A DNA stretch of 64,000 nt from Psammoneis japonica (Eukaryota), in assembly GCA_008632985.1 (NCBI GenBank), contig QPGO01000082.1, positions 62,001 through 126,000 on the forward strand, read 5' to 3'. The notes under the pieces were generated by a model, which saw nothing but the letters and a program-made list of their open reading frames with translations, was not told the origin of the DNA and did no database searches. Positions 490-47,465 of this stretch are shown piece by piece (the first letter of the stretch is position 1; the number at the start of each line of letters is the position of its first letter). The position numbers and the translations under genes are program-made.

Positions 490-1020
490 CGTACCCGAAT
501 TGGCTTTCCAAATAGCAATCAAGCCCCACCAACACTGGCTGGAGTGTACTCAACTCGAACGACAGTAGTGACACCATCTTCCATCACAAAGCCCATCATT
601 TTTGCTGCAAATCGTATTTTGGCACCAGGCTGCCGTGTTTCGCCGCGCAGCAACCGAACACGATTTTCAGTACCCAAATGCGGAGAGCCGTCCACAAGTA
701 TTCTCTCAGGCGTCCCATGCTTGCTAAGTGTCTGCAAGACATGTCGTAAATTGTGCGAGGTTGCGTCCAATGTGTGTCGTGAGCTTTCGATCACTGCACG
801 TTCCGGCGCCACAAACAATATTTGGAATCCTTGTTCAAGAAACGTCTGCGCACGAGAGTTTCGAAATTCAATATCCTTTCCTCGTGCTTCAATTGGATGA
901 CCACGTTCAAGCAGTATAGGCAAACAGGCGCCTAATACTGCCAATTATTGTAGCCCACAAATAACCTCGCAGGTCCAGCTCCAACAATCACTACACGGGG
1001 CTCGTCTGATTCTGACGTAC
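490..1020 (-). pseudogene. Fragment of FAD/NAD(P)-dependent dehydrogenase gene (copy 1, TpA intact)
   Basis: Minus strand reads PRVVIVGAGPA, then after a frameshift PILLERGHPIEARGKDI...GSPHLGTEN. Truncated and frameshifted. Aligns by eye with 4730-5290. Confidence 0.7.
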
Positions 1021-1391
1021 GGTTGTTTTCAAACAACCTAGCCATCCATGTCGTAAGAGTAGAGACGGTTCCCCTGCTTATACGGTAAGTACAAAGACAA
1101 GAGTCAGATTCGGTCGCTTATGAGGTATTGTGAGAATGAAATGCATTATGATGAATTACATACCTTTGTATCAAACTGGAGGGATGTACAAGACAAGGCA
1201 AACAATAGTGGAGCCTGCTCAAGCACAAAAGTGTCACTGTCAAGCTCAAGAGTGGATAGGATACGGGTGGCTCTGAAAGAACAGATTATGGCAAAAGTTG
1301 GACAAGGTGACAGGCAAGTGCGGAATGCTCTCCTCGACCCAACTGCTTAACACTGACTCTCCCTCTCAATTCCAATAGTCCAACATGTCCC

Positions 1392-2060
1392 TCACAATTC
1401 CTCCACCACTCTCTCAATAGCGAACGGCAGCATAGTGTAATGCGTTCCGAACAACCAGCCACCTCTGGCCTCGGCCATTTTGACTACGCCGCACATGATA
1501 AGCAGCGTATCGGACGTCACTTTCTTAATCGCCAATGCAACCATTTGAGGCAAATCCGTAGCCCTCAAACACAACTTGGTCAGGCAGGAAGCTAGAATGG
1601 TTCAAAAGAAGACGTTGCCACCAATCATCATCATGCGCAAATGATAAGCATTATCCGACTCGTCCGAAAGAACGGCTTCGGAGTAGACAGTTTGGGTTGC
1701 ATAAGTAACGTCGGCCGACACAACGTTCTTTTTGGGAGCCTCTCCTTCTTCGTGCTTCTCTTCATGATTCTCTTCCTTGGCAATCAAGAATGGGGTCGGA
1801 CCTAACTGATCGAAAATAGTTTCAAAGGCCTCCATGTCGGTTTCCTCCGTATCCGAGTGTAGTCTATGTATTCACCCAAGATCCAGAGACATACGTGCAT
1901 TATGCTGCTGGAAGAAATGTCCTCGACGAAGCCCAACAACTTGGGCGAGATAGATCCTTGCAGTGCGGGGTACTGTTCCACAATGGCTCCGACAAAAAGA
2001 GCAACCTGCATAGCACCATCCGCGCCTAAAAAGTCCAGGATGTTCCGGTAGTCCGTCGTT
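1392..2060 (-). pseudogene. COPB1: Coatomer subunit beta (beta-COP) internal fragment
   Basis: Motifs DFLG...VCLWILGEY and ADVTYATQT...LRMMMIGGNVFF match beta-COP (LWILGEY, DGTYATQS, GDFF). Spread over three broken frames with no N- or C-terminus. Confidence 0.7.
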
Positions 2061-2567
2061 GGATTCAATTTGCAAACAAACACAATATTCTCAGGAGCTC
2101 TGACATCTATAAAACGAAACACAGTGCATATAAGAGAACAAGAAGCAATGTGGTCGAACGCTTCCAGCTTGCAAGTGCTTGCTCACCGGCATATGGCAAT
2201 TCCCCCAGCACTTACAAAACGACGGCACGCGATTTGTCTTCTCGTTTGTGAATCTCTTCTTCTCACTGTCCAGCCTTTTTCGTGCGTTTCATCTACCTCT
2301 TACTCTTCTTCCACTTCGTTTGCTTGATTGCGGTGCTCAACGAAAGTAGCCCAGGTCACTTTCTGCAATTTCCATTTCAGCGTCACTGTTTTTCATCTTC
2401 AGCTTTCCCACACATTCAACATGCGGCAACAATACCTTTTCCAGTGTTTCTTAACCATGTCGGCGGGAGACTCTCCATCCGCAAAGAGCCCTGGATTCGC
2501 CCGTCGTAATCTGACGGTCTCCAATGACATCTATATGAAAGCCAGAAATGCAAACGTGAAACTCATC

Positions 2568-3024
2568 TTAAAAAAATGTAATAACCTCTAATCCATGTTC
2601 TGCCTGAAGCTCATAGCAGCAGTAGATTAGTCGCACGCTTTTAAAGAAGGAACAAGGGCTAAGAGACGAGAGACGAAACATTGTACATATCAATACGCCA
2701 ATCAATCCAAACAAACAAGAAGACAGTTCGAAGACACCTACGTTCCAAATGTCTTTGGTGGGTAGGACGTAGAGATCGAGGCCTGGAGTGTTCTTCCGTA
2801 AACCGCAACCAACAGTGTACCAAAAGTTGGCCATTCTCCAGGGCAATAAGACTCTCACCATGTACGTGAACAAACCAGTAAGCACTTGAATAGACCAATT
2901 GTAACCAAAGCTCTCGAGGTTCACAATCCGTACAAGGCTCACACATTACCACCCCACGAGCAACAAGAAAGAGAATGCAACATTGGTAATCACCAAAAAA
3001 GCGCAACTTAAAAGAAATGGCCAT
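2568..3024 (-). pseudogene. Broken fragment of an unidentified membrane-protein gene
   Basis: Two overlapping hydrophobic ORFs in different frames (WSIQVLTGLFTY...LPWRMAN...GLDLY). Family not recognised. Confidence 0.3.
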
Positions 3025-4279
3025 CGATCAATCGGAGAATATAGTCCCGTCGCGGTGGATCTATAGCTCGAATGCGAGCAGATCGCGATTGCGTCAGCTC
3101 CGGATCCGCTGACGACGGCGACTCGACAAATATATCTACTTCACTCTGCATTCTTCTCAGTTGACTCTTACTCTAGAGAGTCTCGATTTCTTCTTCTCTT
3201 CAGATAAATATTCCGTTTTTCTATCTTCAATCTGTGTTCACTTGGACCTTCATCATCATCTGATTCTCTGCTCTTCAACATCAAATTTGCTGTGGGGTGG
3301 GGGTGGGGGACGATGGCGATTTTCAAATTTGGATTTCCGAAATTTGAAGATTTTTCGTCAGTCAGTCGCTCGGCAAGTCTTTTGCATTTTCGACGGTTAC
3401 CGTAAAGTGTACGTAGGAATTAGTAATAATTTGGAAAGTACCGAGTTCCCACGAATCTTTTACATACGAAATCATGGTAGTAATTCTACAAAGATACACA
3501 CAAAATGACATAGTGATTGAGAAATTTAGCAACGGTCACGAAACAAACAAATCTCTGTCTCGGAAATTCTTTCGTTTCGATCACAACTCGTCGTCTCGCA
3601 CCATGTGCTTGTTGTTTGCCAAGCCGGAATGCCGCTGTCGCCAAGGATGGCTCGCCCTTCCTCTGGATTGAGACCTTGCATTCGTTTGGCATTCCACAAC
3701 TCATTTGGCTTGATGGCGTGTTGTCTCTGGGTGGCGCAGGTGTTGCCAGTTAAGTCCGGAGGTCGGGGCAAATCGAATGCGTCTCTCCGGCCTTGAGTCC
3801 ATGTCACTCTCGTGTCTTTGAGCACAGGAAGTTGCCTGTTCGCTTGACCCATCAGGTCACGGCTGTTGAAACAGGCAGCAGCGTTCGTCTGTGAAGCAGC
3901 AAAAGCTCGCCGAGCAGATCACACTGTTGACGGAACACAGGTTTGGGGTTCTGTCGCATCATTGACATGATGCGGTGAGTCTTCACTCGCAGGGAGTGTT
4001 GATTTAGAATGCGGTTGACTCGCAAGTTTTCTTGTTGTCTCCGCAGTGCGTCCCCCCTTTTGCTTTTTTTTGAGTGACACTTTTCTCTCTGAAGATGCGC
4101 AAAAGCTTGAGCGCCATCTTTTGATGGAGCTCTTGAGGCAACGTCGCCCTGCGCAACCGATTTCTGTGTCAACTTTTGATGTTGGTGTGTCTCAATTTCA
4201 TTGAAACACTCTTTGAACCTTTACAATGGAAGTGGAAAAACTAAAAGCACCAGATGGCATTCCTCACTTGCATGCAAGT

Positions 4280-4720
4280 TGTTCCGCACACATGTCAACA
4301 GACTGCAATGACGGTCACAGCGCTTGCGATGTCGTTGCACATTGTGTTGTCGTTGTTTCACAGGATTGAAAGGTGTGAGTCGAGAACATCTGTTTCGAAG
4401 CCATTCCCTCCCATGCAAGTTCACACTTGTTGTCCGGATTAAACTTGCGACTGGCCGTTTCGCCATCTTCATTGTCTTCGGCTTGTTCCTCCAGCTCTTC
4501 GAGCCCTTCTCCAGTCCAATTCACGGATCATCATGAGTCGAGCATGACGCTTGATCGCTTTGGGCCCGCCCTCGCAGATGACACACGCCAGGCAGTGACG
4601 GGCTTTTGCACTCCAAGACACCACCCGTGATGTAGTTTTGCTGCGCTTTCAAACCAACCTTGGTCCGATGGCATGCATTGACGTCGCAAAAACTTGCACA
4701 GAAACAAGTCCATTCTATTC
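4280..4720 (-). pseudogene. PRPF3: U4/U6 snRNP protein Prp3 C-terminal fragment
   Basis: HRTKVGLKAQQNYITGGVL...CEGGPKAIKRHARLMMIR/NWTGE...NKCELAWEG match the Prp3 C-terminus (AQQ.Y.TG, EGGPKA.K.Y..LM..RI.W, NKC.LVWEG). Frameshifted, with conserved Y->H. Confidence 0.75.
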
Positions 4721-4729
4721 CCTTGTGAT

Positions 4730-5290
4730 TTCGTTGTCCAAAGGGCAATCAAGCCCCACCAATGCTTGCTGGAGTGCACTCAACTTGAACGCCAGCAGTG
4801 ACACATCGCCTTCCATCACAAATCCCATCATTTCTACTCCCACTCACATTTTGGCACCAAAGCTGTCGTAAATCTTGTCTTGCATTTTGCAGCAACCGAA
4901 AACAAGATCATCAGCACCCAAAAAATGCGGAGCGCCATCCACAAGTGTTCTCTGAGGCACCCGACACTTGATCAGCGTCGCCAGGACACAACCAAATCGT
5001 CCGAGTTGCGTTCAATCCGTGTCGTGAGCTTTCGATCACTCCACGTTCCAGCGCCACAAACAAAAGTTGGAATCCTTGTTCAAGAAACGTCCGCGCACAA
5101 GAGCTCCAACATTCAACATCCTTTCCTCGCGCTTCGTCTGGCTGACCACATTCAAGTGGTGCAGGCAAACAGGTGCCTGACACTGCCAATTGTAGAACAC
5201 AAAACAACCCCGCAGGTCCAGCTCCCACAATCACGACGCGGGGCTTGCCTGATGATTCTGTCATGCGGTTGTTTTCAATGCCCGCCTTTG
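4730..5290 (-). pseudogene. FAD/NAD(P)-dependent dehydrogenase fragment (copy 2, TpA-mutated)
   Basis: KPRVVIVGAGPAGLFCVLQLA. Collinear with 490-1020. Confidence 0.75.
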
Positions 5291-5899
5291 AGAGATTTTT
5301 GTTCTTAACATTTTCATCCAACTCCAATCGCCCCGGTTGATGGCACATTTTGAGTTTCTTGGCAACAGATGGCAACATGTTTACGTCCATAACGTGAGAA
5401 CATCCTTGACAGCACATTCTCCACAGATTGCGTCTGAGATTGAGTCGCTTGGAAAGAGCTGTCAAGACTGGGATGTAGAATGTTCTTTTCCCACTCCCAA
5501 CTGGTGTGTGTGTGTTGGGGTGTTGGATCCGTGGGAGGGTGTTGCATGCAGCATGAAGAGACGCATGACCTCCACCGGAAGATCAACCCACTTTTCTACA
5601 ACAGCAAGACGAGCTTTGCAAGTGGTGTCAGTGAACACAACTTGGCTTTGTCACTTTGGCACTGCCCATGCTGATCTTACAATGCACTGGAAGGCGGCAG
5701 CATCCGGCTCCGCCACTGCATGTGCTGGTTCTGCATCGACTGTTTTTGACATTGAGAGAGAAGTGCGTGAGAAATTCAGCAAAACACACCGCAGCCATAG
5801 ACAACTTCGGAACGTAGACTACCTTGAACGCTCTTGATGCTTTCCTGCAACTTGGAAAGCAACTTTTAAAGGCATGTCACGTCGGGCTCATCACTGACA

Positions 5900-7575
5900 T
5901 GCTCTCGGAAGTGACTCCTGGCTGGTGTGTTGAACTTTTGGCAAGCTGCAACCATGCATGCGGAATGTGCGTGCTTGATGTGGACCAACCATGGCATGTA
6001 CTTGACAAACAATTGGATCTTCCCCCCTTTACATCCTTGATGGCAAAGCCCCTAGATCGGCAATTTTCGCTCGCAACGAATCCGCCAGCTCACTGACCAT
6101 GGCCCGATGCCACCATCTCTGCCTCTGCATCCTCATTTTCCTTGTCTGCCAGAGGAACTTGAAGAAAGAGATTAAAAACCTTGTCCATTTGGTCCACGGC
6201 ATCCTTGACGGCTTTCAAGCAGACCAAATCTAACGGAGTTGCGTCACCCCCTGTCTTTTGCTTTCTTGACGCGTTTGCATTCATTCTTGGCAGCCTTGGC
6301 ACAGGCAAAGAGAGAAGCTGCCACACGTGGCATGCTCAAATCATTCACCCAGGTGGCTTTTAAATTGCAATCTCTGCAGGAACCAACTGCCAGGCAATCT
6401 CACTGTCCTTGTCAATCACACCACTAGAATCCTCCAACGTCTTGTCGGTTTGTGCAAATCTTGTCCATGGTTTGAGCTCTCCTTGGCAGCTCTCATGGCC
6501 TTTAGAGCACAACTGAGTGGATTTCTAAACTGTGAGCCTGCCACCAAGCAATGACAAGCATGGCCTTTTGTTTTGGTTCAAGACACGCCGCTCGCAAGGT
6601 CAGAAAGTTGAGGCTGAGAGCCGAGACTCTTCAACATTTTCTCATCGTTGACATTGAGAAAGCGATTGCGGATCCAGGAGTTGCAAAAGACCCTTGTCGG
6701 TGGCTCCCTGGGATTGAGCAATTTCATTCTCGTGAAGGGGAAGGTCGAATTCATTCCAAAGCAATGCACGTCGATGGTGTCACCCAAGCACTTGCGAGCC
6801 ACAGCGGAGCATTCCCGATGCCTTCCTGGCCTTCCCTCTCCCAACTCCTTTCCATCCCACGTGGCATCTTGTTCCAAATCAATGCCGGGTTTAGAAGCTT
6901 TCAATGGACAAAAGTCATTGTCATCCACTGGGCCTCTTTTTTGTCCACTGAAGAATGCCGCGATCCTCGTCAGTTTGACAGGCAAGTCTCTTGGTTCTCA
7001 GCGTGAGCACCAACTCGACAATTTCAAGCATTCTGTTGCACGGGGGTCACTTGGACCACCGGCCAATGTTGAGCGCGTCTTTCTCGTAATGGCACACAGA
7101 TCCATGTTCATGTCCTGACACTTCTCAGCAATCTTGTCATCCACGTCGCTTAGTTGCGAATGTCTCTACCGAGTGTCCCAGCATCCAAGATGTGGCAAGA
7201 CATGTTTGAGGACATCGCAATGCACGAGAGTTTGCAACGTGCACACTGTCTTAGATGGCAGGACCGCAGTGCAGCTGCTGACTGACTTTCTTTTTGAGCT
7301 TTTGAAAGGGTTCCTTTTGACGTGTTTTGAATTGTAGAGAAAAAATCGTTTTGTGAAATGGCGTGGAGTGAAGCAAGATGAAGATGTTTGATGCGGTGTC
7401 GTTTTCCATGCAATCCCATGTTTCTTTGAAAGGGCATGCAAGCAGCGGGCGACCACGCATCGATGGGAGAGGTGCCAAAGACAACAAAAAAGGCAGCGGC
7501 AAGGGACAAGCGTGACCATGGTGAACATTGCGAAATTGTGGAAGAAGGTTTGTGCGCGCACGACGATTCACTCAC
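5900..7575 (-). pseudogene. Degenerate gene-like sequence with signal-peptide-like N-terminus
   Basis: ORF at 7575 has a hydrophobic stretch (LSLAAAFFVVFG...DAW) followed by broken frames. Family not recognised. Confidence 0.3.
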
Positions 7576-10500
7576 TCACGCGCGCATTTTGGGCCATTTG
7601 GTGACGCACAGATCACAGACCAACATCGAAATGCAATGGATGGATGGACGGCCGGAGCGGATGGACCGGACGACACACGCCGCAGTCAGCCAATCCAAAG
7701 CAGCACTGGGACAGAGTGTCTTCCCATGAACCATTTGGAGCCAAAATGACCCATTGGCACGTGTTTCTGTTGATGTCATTTTGAGGTGAGGCCAATGCCG
7801 CTTCTTGCCGGTGTTGTTGCGGGACATGCTTGGCAGAGAGCATGGTCTCTCCTGCCTGTGTGGCTGCATGCCAGCAACCCAGGCAACACTCCCACTCTCC
7901 ACCGCAGCAAAGAAGCACCCAAAATTTAAAAAGGGGTTTTCCTTGATGTCATCTTCTAAAATTTGAGCACAATCAATGTGGTGCATGTGGGACATTTGAA
8001 GACATCAAACACACACCTTTTTCATCAAGCTGAGTGGCAAAATTCTTCCCCAATGGACAAAAGAAAGATGATGAGAGAGCTGTGTCTGACTCTTTCTAGG
8101 TGTTGTTTGTGTGCATTTGTTTTCAACTCACAACACTTGTGACTGGACATCATGCATGTTCTGACATTGTGGGGCTCCCTGATGAGGCCTCCCTTTTTTC
8201 AGTGTTTTTCTGTTGTTGCGTGTTGTGCCCAGCAGAGCACACCATCGCCCTTGCTTCTTCTGCACCACCACCTCATTTGTGTTGTTTTCTTGGAATGGTG
8301 CCGCAATTGTCTGAAAAATCTGCACAAGGGACGGGGCAGTCAGAAAACCTTGCACATCTGCACTGCATGTGTGTGGCACCCAACTCTGACACCAGAAGCC
8401 TTCTTTGTCACCTTGCTGCCAACTGTTGCACGTGGTGCTGGCACAGACTGAGTCTTTTTGCATTGCATGTGGATGGGACCCAGATCTGACAGAAGCCTTC
8501 TTTGTCACCTTACCAGCAACTCTGAAAATTGGCCACAAGCATTTTGTGGTCAATTGAACAAAGTGCAAAATGGCTTGCATTTGCACACAAACAAGAACGC
8601 CAGCGATGGGGTCTGGTCATTGTTGCTTGTGTGCATGTCAGAGGCAGGACAAATTGAGATGCACCACCCAACAAAGCACAAAATCATTTGCTTGCACTTC
8701 CCTTGCATGGAATGAAAAAGTGGCCAGTTTGTTTTTGTGGCCAATTTTCCTTGTCACTGGCTTGCTGCCAACTGTGGCATGCATTGCTGGTGCAGACAAA
8801 GCCTGCCAGCTGCCTGTGGTCAATGCTGTTTTGTTGGTGCTCCAAAAGAAAGGCCAAGCTTTGTTTTCTTGAAGCACCAGGCCATTGTCCTCAACAGCTG
8901 GTCCTTCATCTTTTCATCTTGCTGTGTGTCTGTTGCTTTGTCACACCACACCCCACAACCACCAACACCAACACCTGTCTCTTCTGTGGTGTGTGACAGT
9001 CCAAAATGCCTGCACTCCTGAGCCACTTTTTCCTTTTTGCAGCATTGCCCAGCACCTCAAAAGCACACATGCTCTGTCAACAGTTGAAAGCCATTGCCTC
9101 CAAATGGATGCAGCCCGTCCTGGTGATGTGGGTCCTGGCAACAATGAGTTCATCCCTCCTCTTTTGACAAGCCTCCACAGCAGCCCAGTTGCTGGACCCA
9201 GCATGCACACGCCTTTTGTCAGACAGTCCAGCCCCACTCGCTCATTTGTTTCCAGGGAAAGCCACTGTTCAACCTCATCCACAGTTTTCTTGTTCTCCCT
9301 TCTGATGATGGCATGTCTGCCCTTGGAGAGGGTGTCCCTGTGCCAGACATTCCAACAAGATTGTGCGGTGGAGATGTTGGCAACACCACTTTGTTGCTCC
9401 AGCATCTCAGCTGCTTCATGCCCTGTTGCTGACTCCACTCCTCTTCACTTTCTTTTTCTGATGACTTGAAATCCTGCTCTTGACTTGGGTGCACCTCTGC
9501 TTGGTCTTGCACAAAACTTGCATCCCAGCACAAATTTTTGCAATTCCTCCCACATGCTTGCCCAGCACCGGGCTGATTGTTTGTCCCTTCTGCGTGCATG
9601 TGCCAACACAGGATCCACTCTGACTTTTCTTGGGTCTACATTGCTGTCTCCACAGAGTCCCTGCCCTTGTCTCTACATGTGTTTTGCAGTTGATGTCATC
9701 AGGCAGGTGTGCTGACCACATGCTCATGCAATGACTGCCTTGTTGATGTCTGCATGAGTGTGACATCACCATCTCAGAAGCATTTTCAGCAGCCCACCCC
9801 ACTCTAGATCTTTTTTTGAATCTGTGTGTGCTTCAAAGCTCTGCACAGCAGCCAACCTGCTGCTGAATTTTTGCACACTTGTGCATCTCCTTGCAAAGTG
9901 GGTGCATCTTTTTTCCCCCACAGGAGGCTCCAATTGTCTCTAAGATGCCTGTGAAAACATCACGTTCAGATCTCCACAGGGTTGCCCAAATCACTTGGAT
10001 TCTTGCCAAGCTTTTCCAAGTCCTTTTGACACTCTGTCATGGCAGAGAGGAGCTGCTGGATGCCTCATGTGCGTGTTTGTTGTGTGGTGTCATGATGGGT
10101 TTCCCATGGCCATTTTTCTCCTTGGTTTGACACCAAAATGGTGTGAAAATGACAAGGCCACAAGCAACGTTCAAGCATGTGCAAGGGAAACGGATTGATG
10201 TCTAACTTTGCTGGGTGGTCGTGACTTTGTTGTGGCAATGTCCTTGGACCAACAATTCACCATGCTGCTTCCATTTCCTTCTGGTCTGGGAGCATCATGT
10301 TTCCCTTCACCCAACAACAGCGCCTCCCTTCCTTTGGACAAAAAGACAGAGCTGTCGCATGCAACAAGTGCCATGTGTTGGCGTCATTCTCTCCTGTGGT
10401 TTCGCGCAGAATTGCATTGTGCATTCCAGCTCGTTGACTGGAGTCGTCGCGTCGTTTGTTCCGGGGCACTGTAGAAGAGAAAAAACAAGAAAGAACTGCC

Positions 10501-10649
10501 ATCAATGTTTTCTCGGATAGTGCGTTGCGCTAGTTTTCGTGAGCAGGTTTGCAGTGCAAGCAGAACCGCCACGCAGTCTCTAGTCTAGCTAGAGTGTATA
10601 TGGGCAAGTCTGAAGAAATAAAATTTATATCGTACATAGTATTTCATTT

Positions 10650-12236
10650 TTAAATAGAAACAAGAGTCGTTCTGTGGCTGCTGCGCTTGCGATGATGCTT
10701 GGGAACAAAGCATTCTAGCGCTCGAAAGTGTCGCTTTGATCTCGAGGGTACTTGTTGTTGTTCTGCAGCAACAAGACTCCCTAGAGACTCCTTGACAATG
10801 TCTTGGTGATGCTTGACAAAGGGCTGCAAGTCGAATTGAAAAGGCCGATCACCAAAGTTGCAAGACACGGGATGATTTGTATCCACTCCAACGGTTGGAT
10901 ACAATCCATCATAGGGCAAAAAGCTCAAGTCCAAACCAGTCCAACCATAACCCAGAAACTTGCCATTGAGGGTAAAAAAGATGCCGCTGCAGACGTAATC
11001 GACACCACACCCCACGACGTCGCCCACTCCAAATTTGGGTCCAAAATGCTTGTAGGCCGTGCCCGAACCGTGAAAAATGCCACCGTCGTCGCCGTGATAA
11101 CCATACGAGTATCGGTCCCATCCCGGTAGGCGTGAACGAAACTTGAACCCATTGACCGACAAGCCAATCGCGACACAGTCCGTTGCCGAGGTGGAAGAAT
11201 CATCATGATTGCTGCCATGATTTAGAGGCGACGGTTCTTGGGATTCGTCGCGGCTCAAAATGGAAACTTCAAAATACGACACGAGACGCGGTGTCAAGTG
11301 TACCTTGTCATCACAATCTGGAGTCATGTAGGGAGCCACAAAGGGTTGAGAATAAGGAGACGGTTTCGATGACGACGACTTGTTGTTGTGCCTTTGTTGA
11401 AGCCAGTGGCGGAGACTTCGTCGATGGGTTGTTTCGGCAACTCCTGATGGAAAGATGGGAGGTTCCGACGTGGAACGTTTATGGTAAAAACGTTGATTGG
11501 ATGAAAGTCCTCCACGAGGCCTGGGGAGTGGATCATCGGCCCGAATCGATCGATTTTCTGTTCCAACCTGGCCCATAAATTGAACCACAGGCACTCCATC
11601 CTGCGTGAATTCCCGAAGTACGGGACTGTGTCTAGATTCCTGTGATCGTCTTGGATCACTCACCAACGTCTTGTCGTTGATACAGGAGGGATGTGACCAA
11701 CTCGCCATGGCCAATAGCACAGAGAGATTGGGTCTCGAGGATGAATGTGAAGAACTGAGAGCTGTCGGTAGGTGCATGTCGTTGGAAAACGTGAGTTTCT
11801 GCGCAGAAGTACTTGACAGCACGGGCCACTGAGCACGGCACCACTGTGTCCATACGTAGAGAGCGTCCTTGGAGAGTAACAATCGACGAAGCCTATGACA
11901 TGTCACCAGTACGGATCGAGCTTCGGAGGGCTTGAGGTACGTTAGAATGTTCAACTGAACGTCAGGGCACAAGTCACAGATGCCGAGCGAACCGCTCTTG
12001 CTCGATGAAGGAGCGAGTGCCTGCAGAGACAGCAGAGAATGCGGCGGAGTCGATGACGAGTCCTCTGTATCGCTCGTATCATAGTTGACACCGCTGGTGG
12101 AACTCGTTTCGGATGCAGTCCCATCTTCCCATGACGGTTTCGGCACTTGCATCGGATGTTTGTATGGATACGTCTTGTTTGGTGACATGCCCATGATGGG
12201 AGTCACTGCAATCTCTTTGTATTCACAAGGAGGCAT
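10650..12236 (-). CDS. F-box-like plus SPRY (RanBP9/10-type) domain protein
   Basis: 528-aa intact ORF. LCPDVQLNILTYL is F-box-like. YFEVSI, LPGWDRYSYGYHGDDG, FGPKFGVGDVVGCG, IFFTLNGKFLG, LYPTVG and NFGDRPFQFD are SPRY motifs. Confidence 0.9.
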   Translation of the reverse strand: MPPCEYKEIAVTPIMGMSPNKTYPYKHPMQVPKPSWEDGTASETSSTSGVNYDTSDTEDSSSTPPHSLLSLQALAPSSSKSGSLGICDLCPDVQLNILTYLKPSEARSVLVTCHRLRRLLLSKDALYVWTQWCRAQWPVLSSTSAQKLTFSNDMHLPTALSSSHSSSRPNLSVLLAMASWSHPSCINDKTLVSDPRRSQESRHSPVLREFTQDGVPVVQFMGQVGTENRSIRADDPLPRPRGGLSSNQRFYHKRSTSEPPIFPSGVAETTHRRSLRHWLQQRHNNKSSSSKPSPYSQPFVAPYMTPDCDDKVHLTPRLVSYFEVSILSRDESQEPSPLNHGSNHDDSSTSATDCVAIGLSVNGFKFRSRLPGWDRYSYGYHGDDGGIFHGSGTAYKHFGPKFGVGDVVGCGVDYVCSGIFFTLNGKFLGYGWTGLDLSFLPYDGLYPTVGVDTNHPVSCNFGDRPFQFDLQPFVKHHQDIVKESLGSLVAAEQQQVPSRSKRHFRALECFVPKHHRKRSSHRTTLVSI

Positions 12237-12559
12237 TGTACGATGTGATGAGTTCGTTGGGATTTGCGTATGTGTTTGAACGATGTTTGAATGAGTAGTC
12301 GTTTTTTGTGCGAAGAATGCAACGGAGTTCGGGACTGTTCATGGCGGCGGAAGTGCCGAAGACATCACTTCTGCCCGAGCAGCTGTTTGAAATCGGCGAA
12401 CATCGAAAGTGCGTTGAAATCTAAGATGGCCACAAAATGCGAGAATTTTATATAATAGCACGTTCTGTTATTTAACAACTTTCAACGTAAGTTCAACGGA
12501 GCCTCAACGCAAAGAAGGATGATGCTCATCTCTTCTCTGGATGTTTGCTTGCTAGGATG

Positions 12560-15380
12560 TCTGTGACATTCGAGATTGTTGTTCTCCCTCCATCGCATCC
12601 CATGCTTTTGAAAATCCGACGCCCCAGCGTGCATGTCTTCCCAAGTCTTCCTCCATGATGTGACGCCGCATCAGTTGCGTGTTGACTTTCCTCAGAAACA
12701 AAACACAAAAGTTTCTGAGCGTGGGAGTCATGCTAAGACTTGTTCTGTGGGGCTTGTGGCTTTTTGTGCTGGGCCACCATCTGGGTGCTCTCTCGTCCTT
12801 GTTTCGCATCATGCAGGGGAGCTGGCTGGTGTGGGAGCCGCTGCGTGTTTGCTCGATTTCTCAAATGTTGTCTTTCTCTTCAGCCACACTCAGCCAGTTG
12901 AGAGCATGGTTGTCCAGCATGCTCATGAGCAAAGATGTTGTCTTGCAAAATCTCTCTCTCTTTTCTGGGGAGAGGCACAGACTTGTTGTCAGCTCTGCAG
13001 CCAGTGCGTGGTTCTGGTCATGGCTGGTGCAGCTGTCACATGCCAAGTTGAGCTCAGCAACAAACCAGCATGTTGTTGCAGTGTGAGCATGCACAACCCA
13101 CCTCTAAATGACCAATTCTTGGCAAGAGCAGCAAGCTGCATCATTTGCATTTTTCTTGCTGCTGGGATGTCTCCTGTCCCCATCACTTTTCTAAAGCAAG
13201 TGCAACATCTGTCATTTTTCTTTGCAGTTGCTGAGTGCTGGACTCTTGCACTCTGGCTTCCAAAGAGTCTTCTTTTTCCTTTTTCAGTTTTTCTTTTCAT
13301 TTGCAGGCAGGCCAACAAGAGCAGTGTCATGCATTTGAGAGGTGTCTGTGAAGAAAGACATTGTTCAACCAACAAATGCACCTTGTGCAAGCATGTCTAA
13401 AGCCACCATGCCAACTCCTTCCCATGACCTTTCTTGTGAAACAGCGGGCTTTGTTGTTGATCAGTCACAGAAGAGCATGTGGGCATCAGCAGCAAAAACA
13501 CCATCACACAAGTCATCCTGATTTGTGGCTTTGATGTTTTGTGTCTCCATGAGAAAATGACAGAGAAGACAACCTCTGAAAGTTGATGAAATGCACATGT
13601 TCTGTGTGAGAACTACAATGAAAACAGAAGAGAAGCAGCCTTTGCCACAGCATTGAGCTGCATTGTTGTGCATTTTTTCTCATGGCTGTGATGCAGCTGT
13701 GTGAAGGTTTTGTGCATTTTTAAAAAGGTTTTGAATTTTGAACATGCATGGCCAGGCTGGCAGATCTCAGCACCAGAGTTCTGGTCTCAGGAAGAGCTGG
13801 TGAGATCTCACTCAGCTTGCAAAATGTGGTGTGCTCCTCAGTGCAAAGGTTGTCATCAACGTCAAGCTCTCTTGTGTCGCCTCCACAGGCTGATGATTTC
13901 TCTTGCCTGCCCAGACCAAAATGTTGCAAAAAGAGAAAATCCACTGTGACATGACAAGTTTTTGATGTGCTTGTGCTCTCCAACTCCCTTTGCCAGGTGC
14001 TTCTTGTCACTCTGTGAAATTTTAAAAGAAACTGCTGTGCTGTGCTCTGAAAAGGCAAATGATGAGCAAAAGAAGAACTTTGCTGTGCCCTGTGTGGGAA
14101 GCTGCTGCTGTTGATGGAGCTCACACAACCATGAAAGAGGAGGCCAGGGGGGTGCAAAGGAGATTGGGGAGTAGAGAGAAGAGCCTGAGACACTGCACTT
14201 GAGATGAGAGAAGTGCAAAAACACAGAAGCAATGCCATTTGCAGCCACACTTTTCCTGGGACATTCTTTTGTGGCTTCTTAAAGATTCAACAACTGCTGA
14301 GATGTCTGAACTCCTTTTCCATTTTCTCGTCATCTTTCCTGCTTTGCTTTTCTTGTTTTGTTCTTTTCCATTTTTCACATTTCAAGTTGCTTCTCTTTTG
14401 TTTTGATTGGAAGAGTGCTGCAGCCAATCATCTCTGACCGACAAAGATGCTTCCGAATCACCACTTCCTGTGGTCCTTTTGCGAAGACTGCCATCAAACG
14501 GAAAGTGAGACAAAGAATGAGTCTCAAGAGGATCAGTCGAAGAAGATGCAGTGTCGCTTTTGGTCAGGAAAACAATCTGCACTGGTTTTTTTTAGAAGTT
14601 GGTGTGCACTGCTCTGGCTCTCGCAAACTGCACATGATGGCCCAACTGTGATCCCAAACTGGACAAAGAAGCGAAGCGGAAACGCCTGGCCTGCAATCAG
14701 TGACACCACAATCAACCCGCAAAGCACAATCGCTTCGATGAAGACGAGAACCATGAGAAAATGCCAAGAGGCCTTGAGAGGATCTCCACAAACCAGATTG
14801 CCACCAGTCATGAGCAAAGTGGTCATTTCGTTGTTGCCGCCATCGGCACTTGGTTTCATCACCTTGGGAATTCCATTCACGCAGCTGGCTGCAAACTTGG
14901 CCATCTCCGCACCGCTTGCAAGACACGCCAATCCTGCCGTCAGGCCCAAAGAAAGATGCATGTGACCCTGTGTTTTGGTCAAGGTGTCATCTTGAAGCTT
15001 GTGAGCCAGAATGACGGCAATGATGCATCCACAAATGGCAAGGACACCCGAAATGACAATGGGGACAAACGACAAAAATGTGCCTCGGGCGTGTTGGGCA
15101 AAGATGCCAGATGGCACTGATGCAATGCAACTGCCCAAGCTCACAAAAAAGACAGAGAGAGCGGCACCGAGGCCTCCGAGGAAATGGGGTTGGTCATGAC
15201 ACCGCATCTTGAGTGTCAAAATGCTTGGAGCAGCCGTCCTTCAGAAGCAACGAAGGGATTGTGTGTGCTCAGAACAAAACATCAACAACTTCTGCAATCC
15301 GCAACGCATCTTCAACAGAAGATTTTTGAGTCGTGGAGTTCTCTCGTGTTCGTGCGGGCTTTCATCAGGGGCTTTGAGCT
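12560..15380. other. TpA-depleted domain 2
   Basis: Few TA dinucleotides, mostly in YTAR context. CpG is also nearly absent from about 13.0 to 14.4 kb. Contains the mutated V-ATPase copy. Confidence 0.85.
14680..15207 (-). pseudogene. V-type H+-ATPase proteolipid (subunit c family) copy with Tyr->Cys/His changes
   Basis: FVPIVISGVLAICGCIIAVIL (consensus GVLAIYG), QGHMHLSLGL (GY.HL), LVFIEAIVLCGLIV (EA..LYGLIV). Four-TM proteolipid layout. ORF track shows the frame open to 14533. Confidence 0.8.
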
Positions 15381-15429
15381 TGAGATACGGTAGATGAGCG
15401 AGTCGTCGAGTCGTCTTGTCACATTCACC

Positions 15430-15800: not shown

Positions 15801-15907
15801 AACGGATCGATAGTATAATTTTCATTGCATCCCCCTCATAGTATTTTTGTTCGCGCTTCACTTCTTATACACACATAAACTAACCATGAATTTTCCCCGA
15901 TCCGTCA

Positions 15908-16967: not shown

Positions 16968-17766
16968 GGTTCTTATGCTGAACGCGGTCGGCTAGAGTGC
17001 TCTCTCCGTTGTGCAATGGTTGTGACGTGTTTGTTGCGTGCCATGGTTACGTTGAACGTGTTCGTGTACGCGCGTTGCGCGTTGCGGCGAAGCGAGCGAA
17101 GCGAAGACCGTTCGTCAGTCAGTCGGTCGGTCGGTCGGTCGGTCGGTCCTTCGTAGGTTTCCAAAAACTAACCGACAAAGAGAGTTGCTAGGGCCCTAAT
17201 TCCTCACCACGGAAATCCTCACCAAATCCTCACCACGGAAATTTCGTTAAATGTTTTGGCGTCACATGCGAACTGCCACATCACAACATCAACGGCTGTC
17301 CGAGCACTGGAACAAAGTCCATCACTTGAGCAAACACCTCAGCCCCGGCCATTGTCTGCATGCACAGCAACGTCTGCATCTTCCCTCTGTGGCGCGCCGC
17401 TTTACAGCGGCACCTCACGATTGTCACACTTTTTGTTTCAATTGATGTGCACTGGAGTCTCTCGAGTCATCCATGGTGTTGTCTTGTTTTTGGCTCTAGT
17501 TGAGTTGCCTTCCAATCTGCAAAGGCGGTTTGAGACACGACCTGAATGACTTTGGGTCGTTGTCAGGAACGACTTGCACCTTGACAATTTGGGGTTGTCG
17601 TTAGAAGACCATGCTTTGTGGCCACCAGGTGTCAACGATGCGAGTGTCACTCACTGAAGACTCAAATCCGCTGGCGTCAATGAGTGTGTTGGTTGCGCTG
17701 TTGTGTGGCCGGTGCTTTGCCATTTTGTTCGTTCCCTGAGATTCTGCTGGTAGATTGTAGTGTGTC

Positions 17767-18726
17767 TTGCCCATGCCGGCAGCACGGCAACACATTTCTG
17801 CTCTGTCAGACGACCCTCAAGACGACCCTCAAGGCAGCTTGCACCATGCCACGACCACACGGCTCCCCCACGACCCTCACAAGATTCACGTGAGCCCTCA
17901 TCACGAAGCATTTTATGAGAGCAACATGAGGGCGTTGGCCATCGTCGATGACAACGCCGAACCTGGCTGCTCATTGGATGACGACGCCAACCGCAAGCAG
18001 GCCAAAGTCGAGCCCGGCTGCTGCTCACTGGATGATGACTCTGTTGTCATCACTCTTGAAAAAACACCTGACTTTTCTCTGATGTCCACGCTTGGCCTTG
18101 AGCATGTTGCCGACCTGGCAAAAATCGGTCGCTCTGTTGCTGTCCCTGCTGATGGTAACTGTGGATGCCACGCTGTGCTGAAGGGACTGGAGGAGGCTGG
18201 CTTGATCAAAAAAGGCACTTGCAACAAGGACATGACTGGTTTCCGAAAACACATGCATGGTTTTGCTGTGCAGAACTTTGAGGGCTTGTGCGGTCGGCCC
18301 TTGGACAATGGTGCAGGTGAGGACAGAGGTCTCTCGGCGGCTGTGTGCGATGGGAAAGTTGTCGGGGAATTTGTTGTCGACAAGAGGAACGAGCACAATG
18401 CTGGTGCAAGCCAGAAAGCTCGATTTCTAAAACTGCTTGCTTGCATCTGGAAGACCGGGATTGACTTCAATTCTGGTTGTGGCAAAGGTCATTGGCATGA
18501 TGCGAATGTGTGCAGCACCATTGTCACTCTCAAGCATGAGCGATCGATTGTCTGCTGTGGAATGGGAAGCAACAAAAACACGTCCATGCACCATCATTCC
18601 AATGGAAAAGTGCAGTTGTCATTTGCAAGAGACACTTGGCTCTCTCCTCCGGCCAATTCCATCACCATGACCCACGACGGCGGCGGCCATTTTGAATGCT
18701 TAAGTCCAGCAAGTGCAAAAGGAAAG
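17767..18726 (+). pseudogene. OTU-like cysteine protease (deubiquitinase-fold) domain inside the MULE
   Basis: VPADGNCGCHAV (OTU DGNC catalytic loop) and a distal HFECL His motif. Probable intron at about 18727-18831 links it to the transposase part. Confidence 0.7.
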
Positions 18727-19186
18727 GTGTGTTGTTGTGTGCTCAGCCAGAGTCATTTTATTTTAAAAAAAGCAATCTCACAATTTGCTCCCATTGTGCT
18801 TGCTTGCATCATCAATGCATTCTCGCCTCCAGCCGTGAAGGATGTGGTTCCTGCCGTTGCCACTAAAGCGAGTGCCGAAGCTGACAACAATGAAAAGGCA
18901 GCGGCAAGTTTTGAGGTGTGCCACAGTTTGTCATGAAGCACAAGGCAATCTCTCACTCTTGTTTTTCTTGTTGCTGCAAGCTTTGCTTGCCAACCACCAC
19001 AACAATGAGTTGCGTTGCTCGGACGAGCACAACGTTGCACCATCCTGACTGGCTCGATCAGTGCAGTGCAGACACCACAACGCATGACGAGCTCCAAATA
19101 CAAAGCAAGGAACTGCAAGGCCAAAACTGGGTCACAACTGGCTTGGAGGATGAGATGCGACAGCACGCTCCTTCCAACAAGGAGAC

Positions 19187-22072: not shown

Positions 22073-22202
22073 GGATCTCCGTGGTGAGGAATTAGTAACT
22101 CTCCCGACAAACTCCGAAAACTCAGTTGCAGATTTGAAGTTGTGAGTTGAGAGTTGTTGAGTTGTGATGAGGGTGTGTCGGGTGTGAGTTGCTGCAGTCG
22201 AA

Positions 22203-28336: not shown

Positions 28337-28550
28337 TCCGCAAGGATGGACAGACAGGTATCCGACATGGACGTACGTATTACGACTCCTTCGACCCCCC
28401 GTTGGCGAGCAACGAGCAAGGCGAAGCATGGAAGCATGCGAAGCAACAAGCAACATAGATGCTGAGCGCTGAGCGCTATTGGTACAAGCAAACCTGATGT
28501 CGCTGGTCCCAACCATCGCTTCATAAAGACAGCCGTAGATTTGTAGGAGG

Positions 28551-34930: not shown

Positions 34931-35389
34931 GAACTCAACTCAGCAGTTCTCACGCCCCAAAGTTTACTATTTGCCTCTCTCTGTCGGTTTTGTTTGCAAC
35001 ACTGTCCCATGAATATAACACTGTCCTTTTTCCTTCTTCCCTCCTTCTTTTGCGTGTGGTGTGTCTTGTGGCAACAAAAACGATGTTCATAAAATACCTC
35101 CAAAATTAAAATTGAAATAAATATAATGAGCTACATTCACTAATATGCTATAAATATTTTATATCACAGAATGCTCAATCGCTTATGTGAAAAACTTTAT
35201 CAACAACATATATAAATATATAGCGGATTAAACATCGATGAAAATCATACAAGAGTCAACAAGTCGCATTCGCCAAACGCGCACTCCGCACCAATGCACA
35301 TGCAACGGACCACCTACAGGTTACAGGCTGCGCGTCGAATCTATGTAATGGTCTGCGACCGGCACTGCAGAGTGGCTGGCTGGCTATGA

Positions 35390-36135
35390 CAGTGCCACTC
35401 TCCAAACCATCGGACCCCTGTCAGGACTGTGCGCCACCTCCTCAGACGTGCATCATGAACCCACCAACCTCATTCCACATTCACCACTCAAGCGCCCTGC
35501 CGACGTTGGATTCAAACTCACCCCTGTCTCCTCTGCTGCTGCGCCCACCACCCATTCCTGTTTTTTGCCATCGATGTTGCCACCCCCAAACCCACACCAC
35601 CACTTCCAGCTCCTCTGGCTTGCCGCCCCCATCCAAGACCCCATGACCAAGGCACACCATGCGAGCACAAAACAGGAAATTCCATGGGACTCACGAAACC
35701 CAACGTGGCACTGCCGGCACCCACCTTGCACCATTCACAGTTGATCACCTTGGCTCGCTTGAATGCTTTGCTCATCACCACCTCTTTGGCGACACTCAAA
35801 AACATCCACTCCCTCCCCCACCTCCTCCACCCTGGAACTCAGAATCCTCTTTTCAACACCCATCTGCCTGCGCGGCCTTCTTCCCAATGCTGCAACTGCT
35901 TGGAATGTCATCACCTTCACCAGGTTTGGTCTCACACACCACACCACCACCCCAAGCCAATGGGCCTTTCAAAGTCTCAGTCTTGTGGCCCAAATCTCTC
36001 GCCAACCAACTTTTGCGCCACTCCACCAAACTTCAATCACAACTTGTCAGTCCAACCCCAAGAACCCTCCCCCGCTCCCCACCCACATGACACCATTTCA
36101 TCCCACCACACCATCTGCACTTCACACCACACTGC
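35390..36135. other. Small TpA-free island (degenerate repeat) upstream of APC5
   Basis: About 740 bp with no TA that I can see, C/A-rich, flanked by TA-rich intergenic DNA. Confidence 0.7.
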
Positions 36136-36362
36136 TTACGGCAATGTTCCGGATGACATTTCGTCTTGGTGCCAGCGGCAAGTGCAAAAGTGAGAGCGAT
36201 GGACAGACCGTACTAGTTTCTCCTTCATACATCATAATCATACAGTACAGGGTCTATTACTGTGTCATTCGACGGATCTGTTGTTGCGTTGCTTGCTTGC
36301 GGACGTTGTTTCAGACCTCTCCCTCTCCCCAATTGAGATACAAAAGCAGTGGTGATAACGCC

Positions 36363-47170: not shown

Positions 47171-47177
47171 ACATCTG

Positions 47178-47465
47178 TTCTTTTTAAATCAGTGGATTTC
47201 ATGTCTGGCCATTGTGTGTTCTTTGTGCTTGCAAGATTTGTTGTCTTGCCATTGTCCATTCTTTTTGACTCAGCACATTTCATGTCTGGCCGTCATGCAT
47301 TCTTTGCACTTGCAAGATTTTTCATCTTGCCGTCGTCCATTCTTTTTGACTCAGTGCATTTTGTGTCTGGCCATTGTGCGCTCTTTGCGCGTTCTTTGAG
47401 ATTTTTCCTTTTGCCATCTTTTGTTCTTTTTGAATCAGCAGGTTTTTTGTCTGACCATTGTGCGA
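47178..47465. repeat. Minisatellite, unit about 81 bp, about 3.5 copies
   Basis: ttctttttga.tcag...tgtctggcc...caagattt recurs at about 47178, 47259, 47340 and 47423. Confidence 0.8.

What the first reader, a model, noticed from the sequence alone, without database searches (positions are those of the whole stretch)
490..5290. Internal before/after pair showing the direction of mutation
Two copies of one dehydrogenase fragment differ systematically. At least ten TpA sites in copy 1 are TpG or CpA in copy 2: ggagtgTAct (541) vs ggagtgCAct (4771); cagTAgtg vs cagCAgtg; tcagTAccc vs tcagCAccc; caagTAttc vs caagTGttc; tcaaTAtcc vs tcaaCAtcc; gTATAgg vs gTGCAgg; ccTAaTAct vs ccTGaCAct. Copy 1 is also a dead fragment yet kept its TAs, so loss of selection alone does not explain the pattern. 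Position (chromatin domain) seems to matter more than merely being duplicated.
Basis: seen in the sequence. Interest (0 to 1): 0.85.

Follow-up and report, generated by a model that had tools for sequence, protein, structure and literature searches.

The report
TpA-erasing hypermutation domains in a diatom
Two copies of a dead gene fragment show that in some stretches of this diatom genome nearly every TA has been turned into TG or CA, a localised DNA hypermutation so far reported only in one unrelated alga.

Summary
Copy 1 (~497-1040) and copy 2 (~4727-5280) are about 80% identical. At 14 sites copy 1 has TA where copy 2 has CA/TG; the reverse occurs once (p~0.001), and no TA is shared.

- Protein outgroups: 6 informative positions have TA ancestral, 1 has CA ancestral.
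- A MULE-like ORF in another TA-poor domain: of 27 conserved Tyr columns it keeps Tyr in 1 and has Cys in 10 and His in 8.
- A high-copy repeat: in 6 of 9 listed rows this copy has CA/TG where other genomic copies have TA.

The window is a mosaic. About 26.7 of 64 kb lies in sharply bounded domains with 5 TA/kb (39/kb elsewhere), excess CA/TG on both strands, and often CpG decay. These domains are single-copy and hold transposon remains and host-gene fragments.

The organism is a diatom. The same TpA>TpG/CpA regional hypermutation was shown experimentally in Bigelowiella natans (bioRxiv 2026). Six literature searches found no diatom report.

Verdict: a new member of a known kind. The enzyme and the targeting cue are inferred, not shown.

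The parts
497..1040 (-). Copy 1: dead N-terminal fragment of an FAD-dependent dehydrogenase, in a normal-composition domain; keeps 20 TA
4727..5396 (-). Copy 2: same fragment (homology to copy 1 at 4727-5280; protein homology continues to 5396), inside a TA-poor domain; 3 TA, none shared with copy 1
3528..10517 (.). TA-poor domain A. CpG partly kept at 3.5-8 kb, nearly gone at 8-10 kb. Single-copy depth from ~4.8 kb on. Reproduced by an independent k-mer contig covering 4701-10885
3205..4272 (.). High-copy repeat (summed depth 4485-6887) with a repeat junction at ~3504-3512 that coincides with the TA boundary. Beyond 3512 this copy has CA/TG where other copies have TA
6581..6997 (-). Degenerate cysteinyl-tRNA synthetase catalytic-domain fragment: a second host-gene fragment in domain A
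10650..12338 (-). Intact SPRY-domain ORF with normal TA content, an untouched island between two TA-poor domains
12554..15385 (.). TA-poor domain B (CpG nearly gone at 13-14.5 kb)
17500..22093 (.). TA-poor domain C (CpG obs/exp ~0.65). Holds a 391-aa ORF (17761-18933) and a 972-aa MULE-like ORF (19154-22069)
19154..22069 (+). MULE-like transposase ORF, Tyr 0.3%. Of 27 homologue Tyr columns: Tyr kept 1, Cys 10, His 8. TA obs/exp 0.09 against 0.43-0.70 in 44 environmental relatives
35386..36136 (.). TA-free 752-nt island D between two genes
41150..53038 (.). TA-poor and CpG-poor domain E (TA obs/exp 0.03-0.09, CG 0.06-0.29, CA and TG 1.7-2.0). No Pfam hit in any ORF scanned

Best explanation
The two copies descend from one already dead fragment of an FAD-dependent dehydrogenase gene. 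Copy 2 lies in one of several sharply bounded genomic domains in which TpA has been converted almost to completion into TpG or CpA (A>G or T>C transitions, on either strand). Copy 1 lies 4 kb away in ordinary DNA and kept its TpAs. The pair therefore records the direction of the process: TA is lost and CA/TG gained. This is the reverse of fungal RIP. The process is regional and independent of copy number. It affects transposon remains, one copy of a high-copy repeat and captured host-gene fragments alike, and it spares an intact gene lying between two such domains. In the same domains CpG also decays to TpG/CpA, most simply by deamination of methylated cytosine at a slower rate, so that all pyrimidine-purine steps converge on CA/TG. 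Because TA>TG/CA cannot turn a sense codon into a stop and removes TAA/TAG in every frame, mutated genes are inactivated by missense changes (Tyr>Cys/His, Ile>Thr/Val/Ala) while long frames stay open. Shown here: the direction, the regional limits, the action on both strands and the independence from copy number. Inferred: that the lesion is enzymatic deamination of adenine in DNA at TpA, as proposed for Bigelowiella natans, and that targeting follows silent or methylated chromatin.
For: Asymmetry 14:1, p=0.00098, no shared TA. Outgroup polarity: 6 TA-ancestral, 1 CA-ancestral, 6 uninformative. Codon 82 (outgroup Tyr in 10 of 14) reads CAT in copy 1 and TGT in copy 2, each one transition from TAT. 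Ancestral CpG lost in copy 2: 4 strong + 2 weak cases against 1. Polarised amino-acid-changing differences: copy 2 derived 20 (6 TA>CA/TG, 2 CG>TG/CA), copy 1 derived 6 (5 transversions, 1 CA/TG>TA). Independent test 1: MULE-like ORF keeps Tyr in 1 of 27 homologue Tyr columns, with Cys 10 and His 8, while other residue types are kept at 21-82%; Tyr is 0-0.4% in 7 ORFs of TA-poor domains against 0.9-3.2% in 7 normal-domain ORFs; all 44 environmental relatives have TA obs/exp 0.43-0.70 against 0.09 here. Independent test 2: in the high-copy repeat, 6 of 9 listed rows at >=3512 show window CA/TG against TA in the other copies, compared with 2 of 31 rows at <3512 (Fisher p=0.0005). Domains: 26,723 nt with 140 TA (5.2/kb) against 37,277 nt with 1466 TA (39.3/kb); CA 2816 and TG 2834, so strand-symmetric; sharp edges. 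Single-copy depth and an independent contig covering 4701-10885 with 11 differing letters and 1 gap. [quoted passage not shown]
Against: The polarity test on the pair alone is small (6:1, two-sided p=0.125). It rests on protein outgroups only ~45% identical, and 6 of 13 positions are uninformative. One site shows copy 1 gaining a TA (934) and one shows copy 2 gaining a TA (604/4836). Only 6 of the 20 polarised copy-2 changes are TA>CA/TG; the branch also carries 5 other transitions and 5 transversions, so TpA editing is not the only thing that happened there. One search prints only 40 of 857 'other letter' rows (the best supported). All read data come from one sample and study, possibly the assembly's own source. 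None of the 44 environmental relatives is hypermutated, so nothing here shows the process outside this genome. No chromatin, methylation, expression or de novo mutation data were available, and no deaminase was sought because no whole genome is held. The TA boundary at ~3510 coincides with a repeat junction, so 'per inserted element' and 'per position' cannot be fully separated.
Confidence: 0.8

Rival explanations
1. Classical RIP direction: copy 1 gained its TAs by C>T at CpA (G>A at TpG) after duplication, and copy 2 keeps the ancestral CA/TG.
For: One of 7 informative sites (934; outgroup Ser in 9 of 14) shows CA ancestral and TA derived in copy 1. The two copies are a duplicated pair, the substrate that RIP needs.
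Against: 6 of 7 informative sites have TA ancestral. Copy 1's TA obs/exp (0.55) is ordinary for this window's normal domains (0.5-0.75), while copy 2 (0.09) is the outlier. Copy 1's polarised changes are 5 transversions and 1 transition. The wider domains are TA-depleted, not TA-enriched. The organism is a diatom.
Confidence: 0.03
2. Selection rather than mutation: copy 2 (or its domain) is under selection against TA, for example for RNA stability or codon use, while copy 1 drifts.
For: TpA avoidance is common in expressed sequences. Copy 2 has a 223-aa open frame.
Against: Copy 2 carries a CGA>TGA stop and frameshifts, and shares the destroyed FGEGGAGT motif. Conserved Ile, Tyr, Thr and Arg codons were changed in copy 2, not kept. 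The depletion spans 7-12 kb of DNA in which 106 of the 108 ORFs scanned had no Pfam hit at E<=0.01, and it is equal on both strands. Long open frames are expected once TAA/TAG are erased.
Confidence: 0.03
3. The TA-poor state travels with the inserted element and does not arise at the position. The elements were edited during their own life cycle (for example ADAR-like editing of an RNA intermediate) or came from a TA-poor foreign genome and brought copy 2 with them.
For: The left edge of domain A coincides with a repeat junction at 3504-3512. Domain C is a MULE-like element. In B. natans the targets are integrated viruses.
Against: Both strands are hit about equally: 9 CA vs 5 TG in copy 2; Tyr>Cys 10 vs Tyr>His 8 on the coding strand; CA 2816 vs TG 2834 overall. 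RNA editing followed by reverse transcription would mark one strand. Domain A is a patchwork of a repeat copy, two unrelated host-gene fragments and a CpG-free stretch. Most other copies of the repeat family still have TA. A MULE is a DNA transposon.
Confidence: 0.1
4. Artefact: modified bases in these domains are misread, so the TA>TG/CA differences are base-calling or assembly errors.
For: Modified-base domains can cause systematic errors on some platforms (general knowledge). All data are from one sample.
Against: A k-mer contig of run X1 (31-letter words, depth ~64) reproduces 4701-10885 with 11 differing letters and 1 gap. The changes are embedded in ordinary divergence with indels and transversions.
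Confidence: 0.02

Closest known systems
Regional TpA hypermutation of integrated viral/foreign DNA in Bigelowiella natans (Mettrop et al., bioRxiv 10.64898/2026.01.13.699255; abstract, Results and Discussion read)
   Same: TpA>TpG/CpA transitions on both strands. Confined to discrete regions. Acts on single-copy DNA, so it is not repeat-induced. Leaves TpA-depleted, CpA+TpG-enriched clusters. Transposase-type genes are among the depleted sequences.
   Different: Different lineage: a diatom (stramenopile) rather than a chlorarachniophyte (rhizarian). Far more complete: TA obs/exp 0.03-0.17 here, against 0.45 for their NCLDV region and a cluster cut-off of 0.43. About 42% of this window is affected. 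Targets seen here are a MULE-like element, a repeat copy and host-gene fragments, with no viral gene recognised. CpG decay co-localises here and is not mentioned in the sections read. Only the long-term footprint is seen here, with no de novo mutations.
Repeat-induced point mutation (RIP) of fungi
   Same: Dinucleotide-specific transition hypermutation that disables mobile DNA and leaves compositional islands.
   Different: Opposite outcome: RIP makes TpA from CpA, this process destroys TpA. RIP needs duplicated DNA and hits both copies, whereas here one of two copies and single-copy DNA are hit. RIP creates stop codons and this process cannot.
CpG decay by deamination of 5-methylcytosine in methylated repeats
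   Same: Explains the CG>TG/CA component (CG obs/exp 0.06-0.3 in parts of the domains, and ancestral Arg CGN codons lost in copy 2).
   Different: Cannot remove TpA. TA loss occurs with or without strong CpG loss: domains at 3.5-8 kb and 17.5-22 kb keep CG obs/exp at 0.63-0.75.
ADAR / APOBEC editing of viral and retroelement nucleic acids in animals
   Same: Deaminase-type hypermutation as defence. ADAR prefers a 5' U, which gives UA>UG.
   Different: Those act on RNA or single-stranded replication intermediates and mark one strand. Here both strands of chromosomal DNA, DNA-transposon remains and non-mobile fragments are affected.

Membership tests
B. natans-type regional TpA hypermutation | Changes are A>G/T>C at TpA, giving TpG/CpA | tested here: met
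   14:1 asymmetry; 6:1 polarity; Tyr>Cys/His in 18 of 27 columns; 6 of 9 repeat rows
B. natans-type regional TpA hypermutation | Confined to discrete genomic regions with TpA depletion coupled to CpA+TpG enrichment | tested here: met
   Five domains, 5.2 against 39.3 TA/kb, CA+TG 211 against 145 per kb, sharp edges
B. natans-type regional TpA hypermutation | Both strands affected | tested here: met
   CA 2816 vs TG 2834; 9 vs 5 in copy 2; Tyr>Cys 10 vs Tyr>His 8
B. natans-type regional TpA hypermutation | Independent of copy number (single-copy target) | tested here: met
   Depth ~60-107 over 4807-10146 and 12283-16000, while repeated DNA at 1069-3204 keeps normal TA
B. natans-type regional TpA hypermutation | Targets are of foreign (viral or transposon) origin | tested here: inconclusive
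   MULE-like ORF (atlas 0.96, Pfam only E=0.11) and a repeat copy, but also two host-gene fragments. 106 of the 108 ORFs scanned have no Pfam hit
B. natans-type regional TpA hypermutation | Ongoing rate about 1000-fold above background, active only in some lines | not testable with these tools
   Needs mutation-accumulation or population data
B. natans-type regional TpA hypermutation | ADAT2-like adenosine deaminase candidate in the genome | not tested
   No whole genome held; none among the 20 window ORFs scanned
Fungal RIP | C>T at CpA producing excess TpA and loss of CpA/TpG | tested here: not met
   Opposite polarity and opposite composition
Fungal RIP | Requires duplication and mutates both copies | tested here: not met
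   Only copy 2 is affected; single-copy domains are affected
5mC-driven CpG decay | CpG depletion with TpG/CpA gain | tested here: met
   CG obs/exp 0.06-0.3 in sub-domains; ancestral CGN Arg codons changed to TGN/CAN in copy 2. Methylation itself was not tested
RNA-level ADAR-type editing of retroelements | Strand-specific A>G on the transcribed strand | tested here: not met
   Symmetric on both strands

The most novel reading that the evidence does not exclude
Diatoms possess a chromosomal, region-targeted TpA>TpG/CpA DNA-editing defence of the kind just discovered in a chlorarachniophyte. Here it runs to saturation over a large share of the genome and acts on any DNA placed in a silenced island, whatever its copy number or origin. 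It has an extended context preference: ATA/TAT is removed most readily and TTA/TAA survives. It inactivates genes without ever creating stop codons. If the two systems are homologous, this is an ancient genome-defence mechanism of the SAR eukaryotes. A bolder version is that one deaminase with dual A/C specificity drives both the TpA and the CpG conversion.
Probability: 0.5. Interest if true: 0.78.

Novelty: new member of a known kind. Interest (0 to 1): 0.65.

Why it matters
If confirmed genome-wide, a mutational genome defence reported so far only in one 2026 preprint on a rhizarian alga would also operate in diatoms, one of the most important groups of primary producers. It would explain a large compositional mosaic in their genomes. 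It offers a natural before/after pair and a saturated end-state from which the sequence preference of the unknown enzyme can be read. It also has a practical consequence: TA-free DNA lacks TAA/TAG stops and produces many long spurious ORFs (116 of at least 90 aa in 26.7 kb here), and Tyr-free pseudo-proteins, which gene predictors may call as genes.

Tried and rejected
The 550-aa FAD ORF at 28539-30191 was tested as the parent and rejected: it is an unrelated monooxygenase with no nucleotide or tblastx similarity. The rest of the dehydrogenase gene is not in the window. No close parent protein is on record; the best hit is ~46% identical. No RNA holder was listed among the sequencing runs. Run X2 has no cover over 5341-10146 and 12817-14418 and X3 laid nothing; neither is used as evidence. 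The CysRS fragment was tried as a further polarity test but is too degenerate. Pfam gave nothing above threshold for the MULE-like ORF, its three homologues or the 391-aa ORF; my by-eye OTU-protease reading of the 391-aa ORF is therefore recalled and unsupported. 8 of the 116 ORFs in TA-poor domains, all lying within 19627-21732 and overlapping the 972-aa ORF, were not sent to Pfam. Earlier scan notes: nothing for this genome or for these words. Literature searches for a diatom report found none; only listings and abstracts of the other papers were seen, and the preprint's supplements are closed. Among 44 environmental relatives of the MULE-like gene, none is hypermutated. The alignment patch at copy-1 626-650, next to a 10-nt indel, was excluded from the branch counts as unreliable.
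Full report
OBSERVATION. The window holds a direct repeat: copy 1 at about 497-1040 and copy 2 at about 4727-5280 (blastn 79% over 547 nt, no further copy in the window). Over 534 ungapped aligned columns 428 are identical, and the 106 differences comprise 64 transitions and 42 transversions. Counted over adjacent aligned columns, copy 1 has TA where copy 2 has CA (9) or TG (5), 14 in all. The reverse occurs once (two-sided binomial p = 0.00098). Copy 1 has 20 TAs and copy 2 has 3, and none is shared.

WHAT THE COPIES ARE. On the minus strand both encode the Rossmann start and the following ~170 residues of the 'uncharacterized FAD-dependent dehydrogenase' family. The best full-length relatives are 550-840-aa proteins of diatoms and environmental stramenopiles at only ~45% identity. 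Copy 2 covers about residues 64-279 of a 643-aa relative and copy 1 about 110-279; the rest of the gene is not in the window. Both copies share the loss of the invariant FGEGGAGT motif (FVAPERAV and FVALERGV), so their common ancestor was already a dead fragment. Each copy also has private lesions. Copy 1 has an in-frame TAA, a frameshift, Gly>Arg in GxGxxG and a 10-nt deletion. Copy 2 has CGA>TGA and two frameshifts. The 550-aa FAD ORF at 28539-30191 is an unrelated monooxygenase and not the parent.

THE CONTEXT THAT EXPLAINS THE PAIR. The window as a whole has TA obs/exp 0.38 and CA/TG 1.38, but this average hides a mosaic. Five domains have almost no TA: about 3528-10517, 12554-15385, 17500-22093, 35386-36136 and 41150-53038. 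Together they make 26,723 nt with 140 TAs (5.2 per kb), against 1,466 TAs in the other 37,277 nt (39.3 per kb). In these domains CA and TG are about 1.5-2.0 times expectation and equal to each other (2,816 and 2,834). CpG is mildly reduced in some of them (obs/exp 0.63-0.75 at 4-8 kb and 18-22 kb) and nearly gone in others (0.06-0.3 at 8-10 kb and 42-52 kb, with only 2-5 CpG per 500 nt at 13-14.5 kb). G+C content is the same inside and outside. Edges are sharp, for example TAs at 3511 and 3527 and then the next at 3751. Copy 1 lies in normal DNA (TA obs/exp 0.55) and copy 2 in the first TA-poor domain (0.09). An intact SPRY-domain ORF at 10650-12338 with normal TA sits between two TA-poor domains.

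DIRECTION, TEST 1 (the pair itself). No DNA outgroup was obtainable: no genome is held and no close parent is on record. I therefore polarised differences by the residue that 14 outgroup proteins have at each codon. There are 13 nucleotide positions in 531-965 where copy 1 has TA and copy 2 CA/TG. At 6 the copy-1 state is ancestral: Ile in 14 of 14 at codons 16 (two positions), 31 and 88; Thr in 14 of 14 at codon 98; Tyr in 8 of 14 at codon 139. At 1 the copy-2 state is ancestral (Ser in 9 of 14 at codon 10). Six are uninformative. At codon 82 (Tyr in 10 of 14) copy 1 has CAT and copy 2 TGT, each one transition from TAT. For CpG, copy 1's CG is ancestral in 4 strong and 2 weak cases (conserved Arg or Ala codons) against 1. 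Over all polarisable amino-acid-changing differences, copy 2 has 20 derived changes (6 TA>CA/TG, 2 CG>TG/CA, 5 other transitions, 5 transversions, and 2 scored as CA/TG>TA, one of which appears to belong to a double change). Copy 1 has 6 (5 transversions, 1 CA>TA). On its own the 6:1 result is weak (p = 0.125).

DIRECTION, TEST 2 (a different domain). A TA-free sequence cannot encode tyrosine. Seven ORFs in TA-poor domains have 0-0.4% Tyr with raised Cys and His, while seven normal-domain ORFs have 0.9-3.2% Tyr. The 972-aa ORF at 19154-22069 has three homologues at 34-40% identity. There are 27 columns where at least two of the three have Tyr. In these the window ORF keeps Tyr once and has Cys 10 times and His 8 times, each a single TA>TG or TA>CA transition away. 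Other residue types are kept in 21-82% of their columns. All 44 environmental loci that encode relatives have TA obs/exp 0.43-0.70 over the match, against 0.09 here. A feature search places the family with MULE transposases (top score 0.96, 197 shared features, PF10551 in all ten best hits). Pfam itself gives only a sub-threshold ZSWIM1-3 RNaseH-like hit (E = 0.11), so 'MULE-like' is a supported lead and not a membership.

DIRECTION, TEST 3 (other copies of a repeat). Contigs of one public sample were laid on 1-16000 at 80% likeness. Positions 3205-4272 belong to a high-copy repeat (summed depth 4,485-6,887, against ~60-65 for single-copy contigs). Loose ends at 3504 and 3512 coincide with the TA boundary. 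Of the 40 best-supported 'other letter' rows printed (817 more were not shown), 9 lie at or beyond 3512. In 6 of these the window has CA or TG where the other copies have TA (shares 0.42-0.94), in 1 it has CA where they have CG, and 2 are transversions. Of the 31 rows before 3512, 2 are of that kind and 2 are the reverse (Fisher p = 0.0005). So this copy of the family, sitting in this domain, lost TAs that most other copies keep.

OTHER PROPERTIES. The TA-poor domain from 4.8 to 10.1 kb and the one at 12.3-15 kb are at single-copy depth, whereas the repeated DNA at 1069-3204 has normal TA. The process therefore does not depend on repetition. A 6,186-nt k-mer contig reproduces 4701-10885 with 11 differing letters and 1 gap, which argues against an assembly-specific artefact, although the run may come from the same sample as the assembly. 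Domain A is a patchwork: a repeat copy, the dehydrogenase fragment, a cysteinyl-tRNA synthetase fragment at 6581-6997 (Pfam E = 1.7e-17) and a CpG-free stretch. The TAs that survive in the domains are rarely ATA or TAT (5' A in 6 of 140 against 390 of 1,466; 3' T in 9 of 140 against 383 of 1,466) and are mostly TTA or TAA. This suggests an extended context preference. By the genetic code, TA>TG/CA cannot convert a sense codon into a stop and removes TAA/TAG in every frame. That accounts for the 972-codon open frame of a gene that lost nearly all its tyrosines, and for 116 ORFs of at least 90 aa in 26.7 kb.

ORGANISM AND WHAT IS KNOWN. An intact ORF (28551-30188) has its best named relatives in pennate diatoms (Fragilaria 52%, Cylindrotheca 50%, Nitzschia 49%, Mayamaea 48%, Seminavis 45%; best unnamed 56%), and the dehydrogenase relatives are also from diatoms. 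A 2026 preprint (bioRxiv 10.64898/2026.01.13.699255; abstract, Results and Discussion read; supplements closed) reports mutation-accumulation lines of the chlorarachniophyte Bigelowiella natans. Two integrated viral regions there mutate about 1000-fold faster than the rest of the genome. Of 231 mutations in them, 230 are A>G or T>C, all at TpA, giving TpG or CpA. One of the two regions, the inserted giant virus (NCLDV), is single-copy and transcriptionally silent. [quoted passage not shown] The footprint here matches that process in dinucleotide, direction, strand symmetry, regional confinement and independence from copy number. It differs in lineage, in degree (TA obs/exp 0.03-0.17 against 0.45 for their viral region), in the targets recognised (transposon, repeat and host-gene fragments, no viral gene), and in the co-located CpG decay. 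Six full-text searches found no report of such a process in diatoms.

MECHANISM AND RIVALS. Best reading (0.8 for the process, much lower for the enzyme): a region-targeted TpA>TpG/CpA hypermutation acted on the domain holding copy 2, with slower CpG decay superimposed. Adenine deamination in DNA and targeting by silent chromatin are inferences borrowed from the preprint and from the pattern of spared genes. RIP in the classical direction is rejected by polarity and composition. Selection against TA is rejected because conserved codons were changed in a dead fragment and the depletion covers many kilobases in which almost no ORF has a recognisable domain, on both strands. Editing of an RNA intermediate, or import of intrinsically TA-poor DNA, is made unlikely by strand symmetry, by the patchwork content of domain A and by TA-bearing sister copies of the repeat. 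It is not excluded for individual elements, because one boundary coincides with a repeat junction. A sequencing artefact is unlikely given the independent k-mer contig.

VERDICT. The thing itself is a new member, in a diatom and in a saturated state, of a kind of localised hypermutation described once before.

Noticed in passing
window 26.7 kb of TA-poor domains (3528-10517, 12554-15385, 17500-22093, 35386-36136, 41150-53038): 116 stop-to-stop ORFs of at least 90 aa on both strands, because TAA/TAG are absent. Only two of the 108 scanned have any Pfam hit. Gene predictors are likely to over-call genes here, and the 'proteins' are nearly Tyr-free.
   Followed up: partly
window 646-752 and 4999-5106 (record 3): A 1,597-nt contig at single-copy depth aligns partly to copy 1 (18 differences in 107) and then to copy 2 (11 differences and 8 gaps in 108). 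A third paralogue of the dehydrogenase fragment exists elsewhere in the genome; its sequence could not be obtained.
   Followed up: partly
window 6581-6997 (-): Degenerate fragment of a cysteinyl-tRNA synthetase catalytic domain (Pfam E=1.7e-17) in the same TA-poor domain as copy 2. This suggests a graveyard or carrier of captured host-gene pieces.
   Followed up: partly
window 15386-15800: Directly beside TA-poor domain B lies the most TA-rich patch of the window (TA obs/exp up to 1.44), full of CTAG/TAG-containing short repeats. Its nature is unknown.
   Followed up: no
window TA-poor domains: Surviving TAs are almost never ATA/TAT (5' A in 6 of 140; 3' T in 9 of 140) and are mostly TTA/TAA. 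This is a possible extended sequence preference of the mutator, not reported in the sections of the preprint that I read.
   Followed up: partly
window 53001-53500: CpG is still low (8 per 500 nt) although TA is back to normal (24). CpG depletion extends a few hundred bases beyond the TA-poor edge, which hints that the two processes have different limits.
   Followed up: no
window 35386-36136: An isolated 752-nt stretch without a single TA between two apparently intact genes (ORFs 32591-34867 minus and 36847-38781 plus); content unknown.
   Followed up: no
window 17761-18933 (+): 391-aa open frame just upstream of the MULE-like ORF, Tyr 0.3%. It has a Cys-protease-like motif by eye (recalled OTU resemblance), but Pfam finds nothing even at relaxed thresholds.
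   Followed up: partly
window 61295-62356 (+), 36847-38781 (+), 62454-63992 (+): Ordinary host genes in normal-composition DNA: DUF2499 (a family I recall as plastid-related), an ANAPC5 homologue and a proteasomal AAA-ATPase in two ORFs. Long uninterrupted ORFs suggest an intron-poor genome.
   Followed up: no
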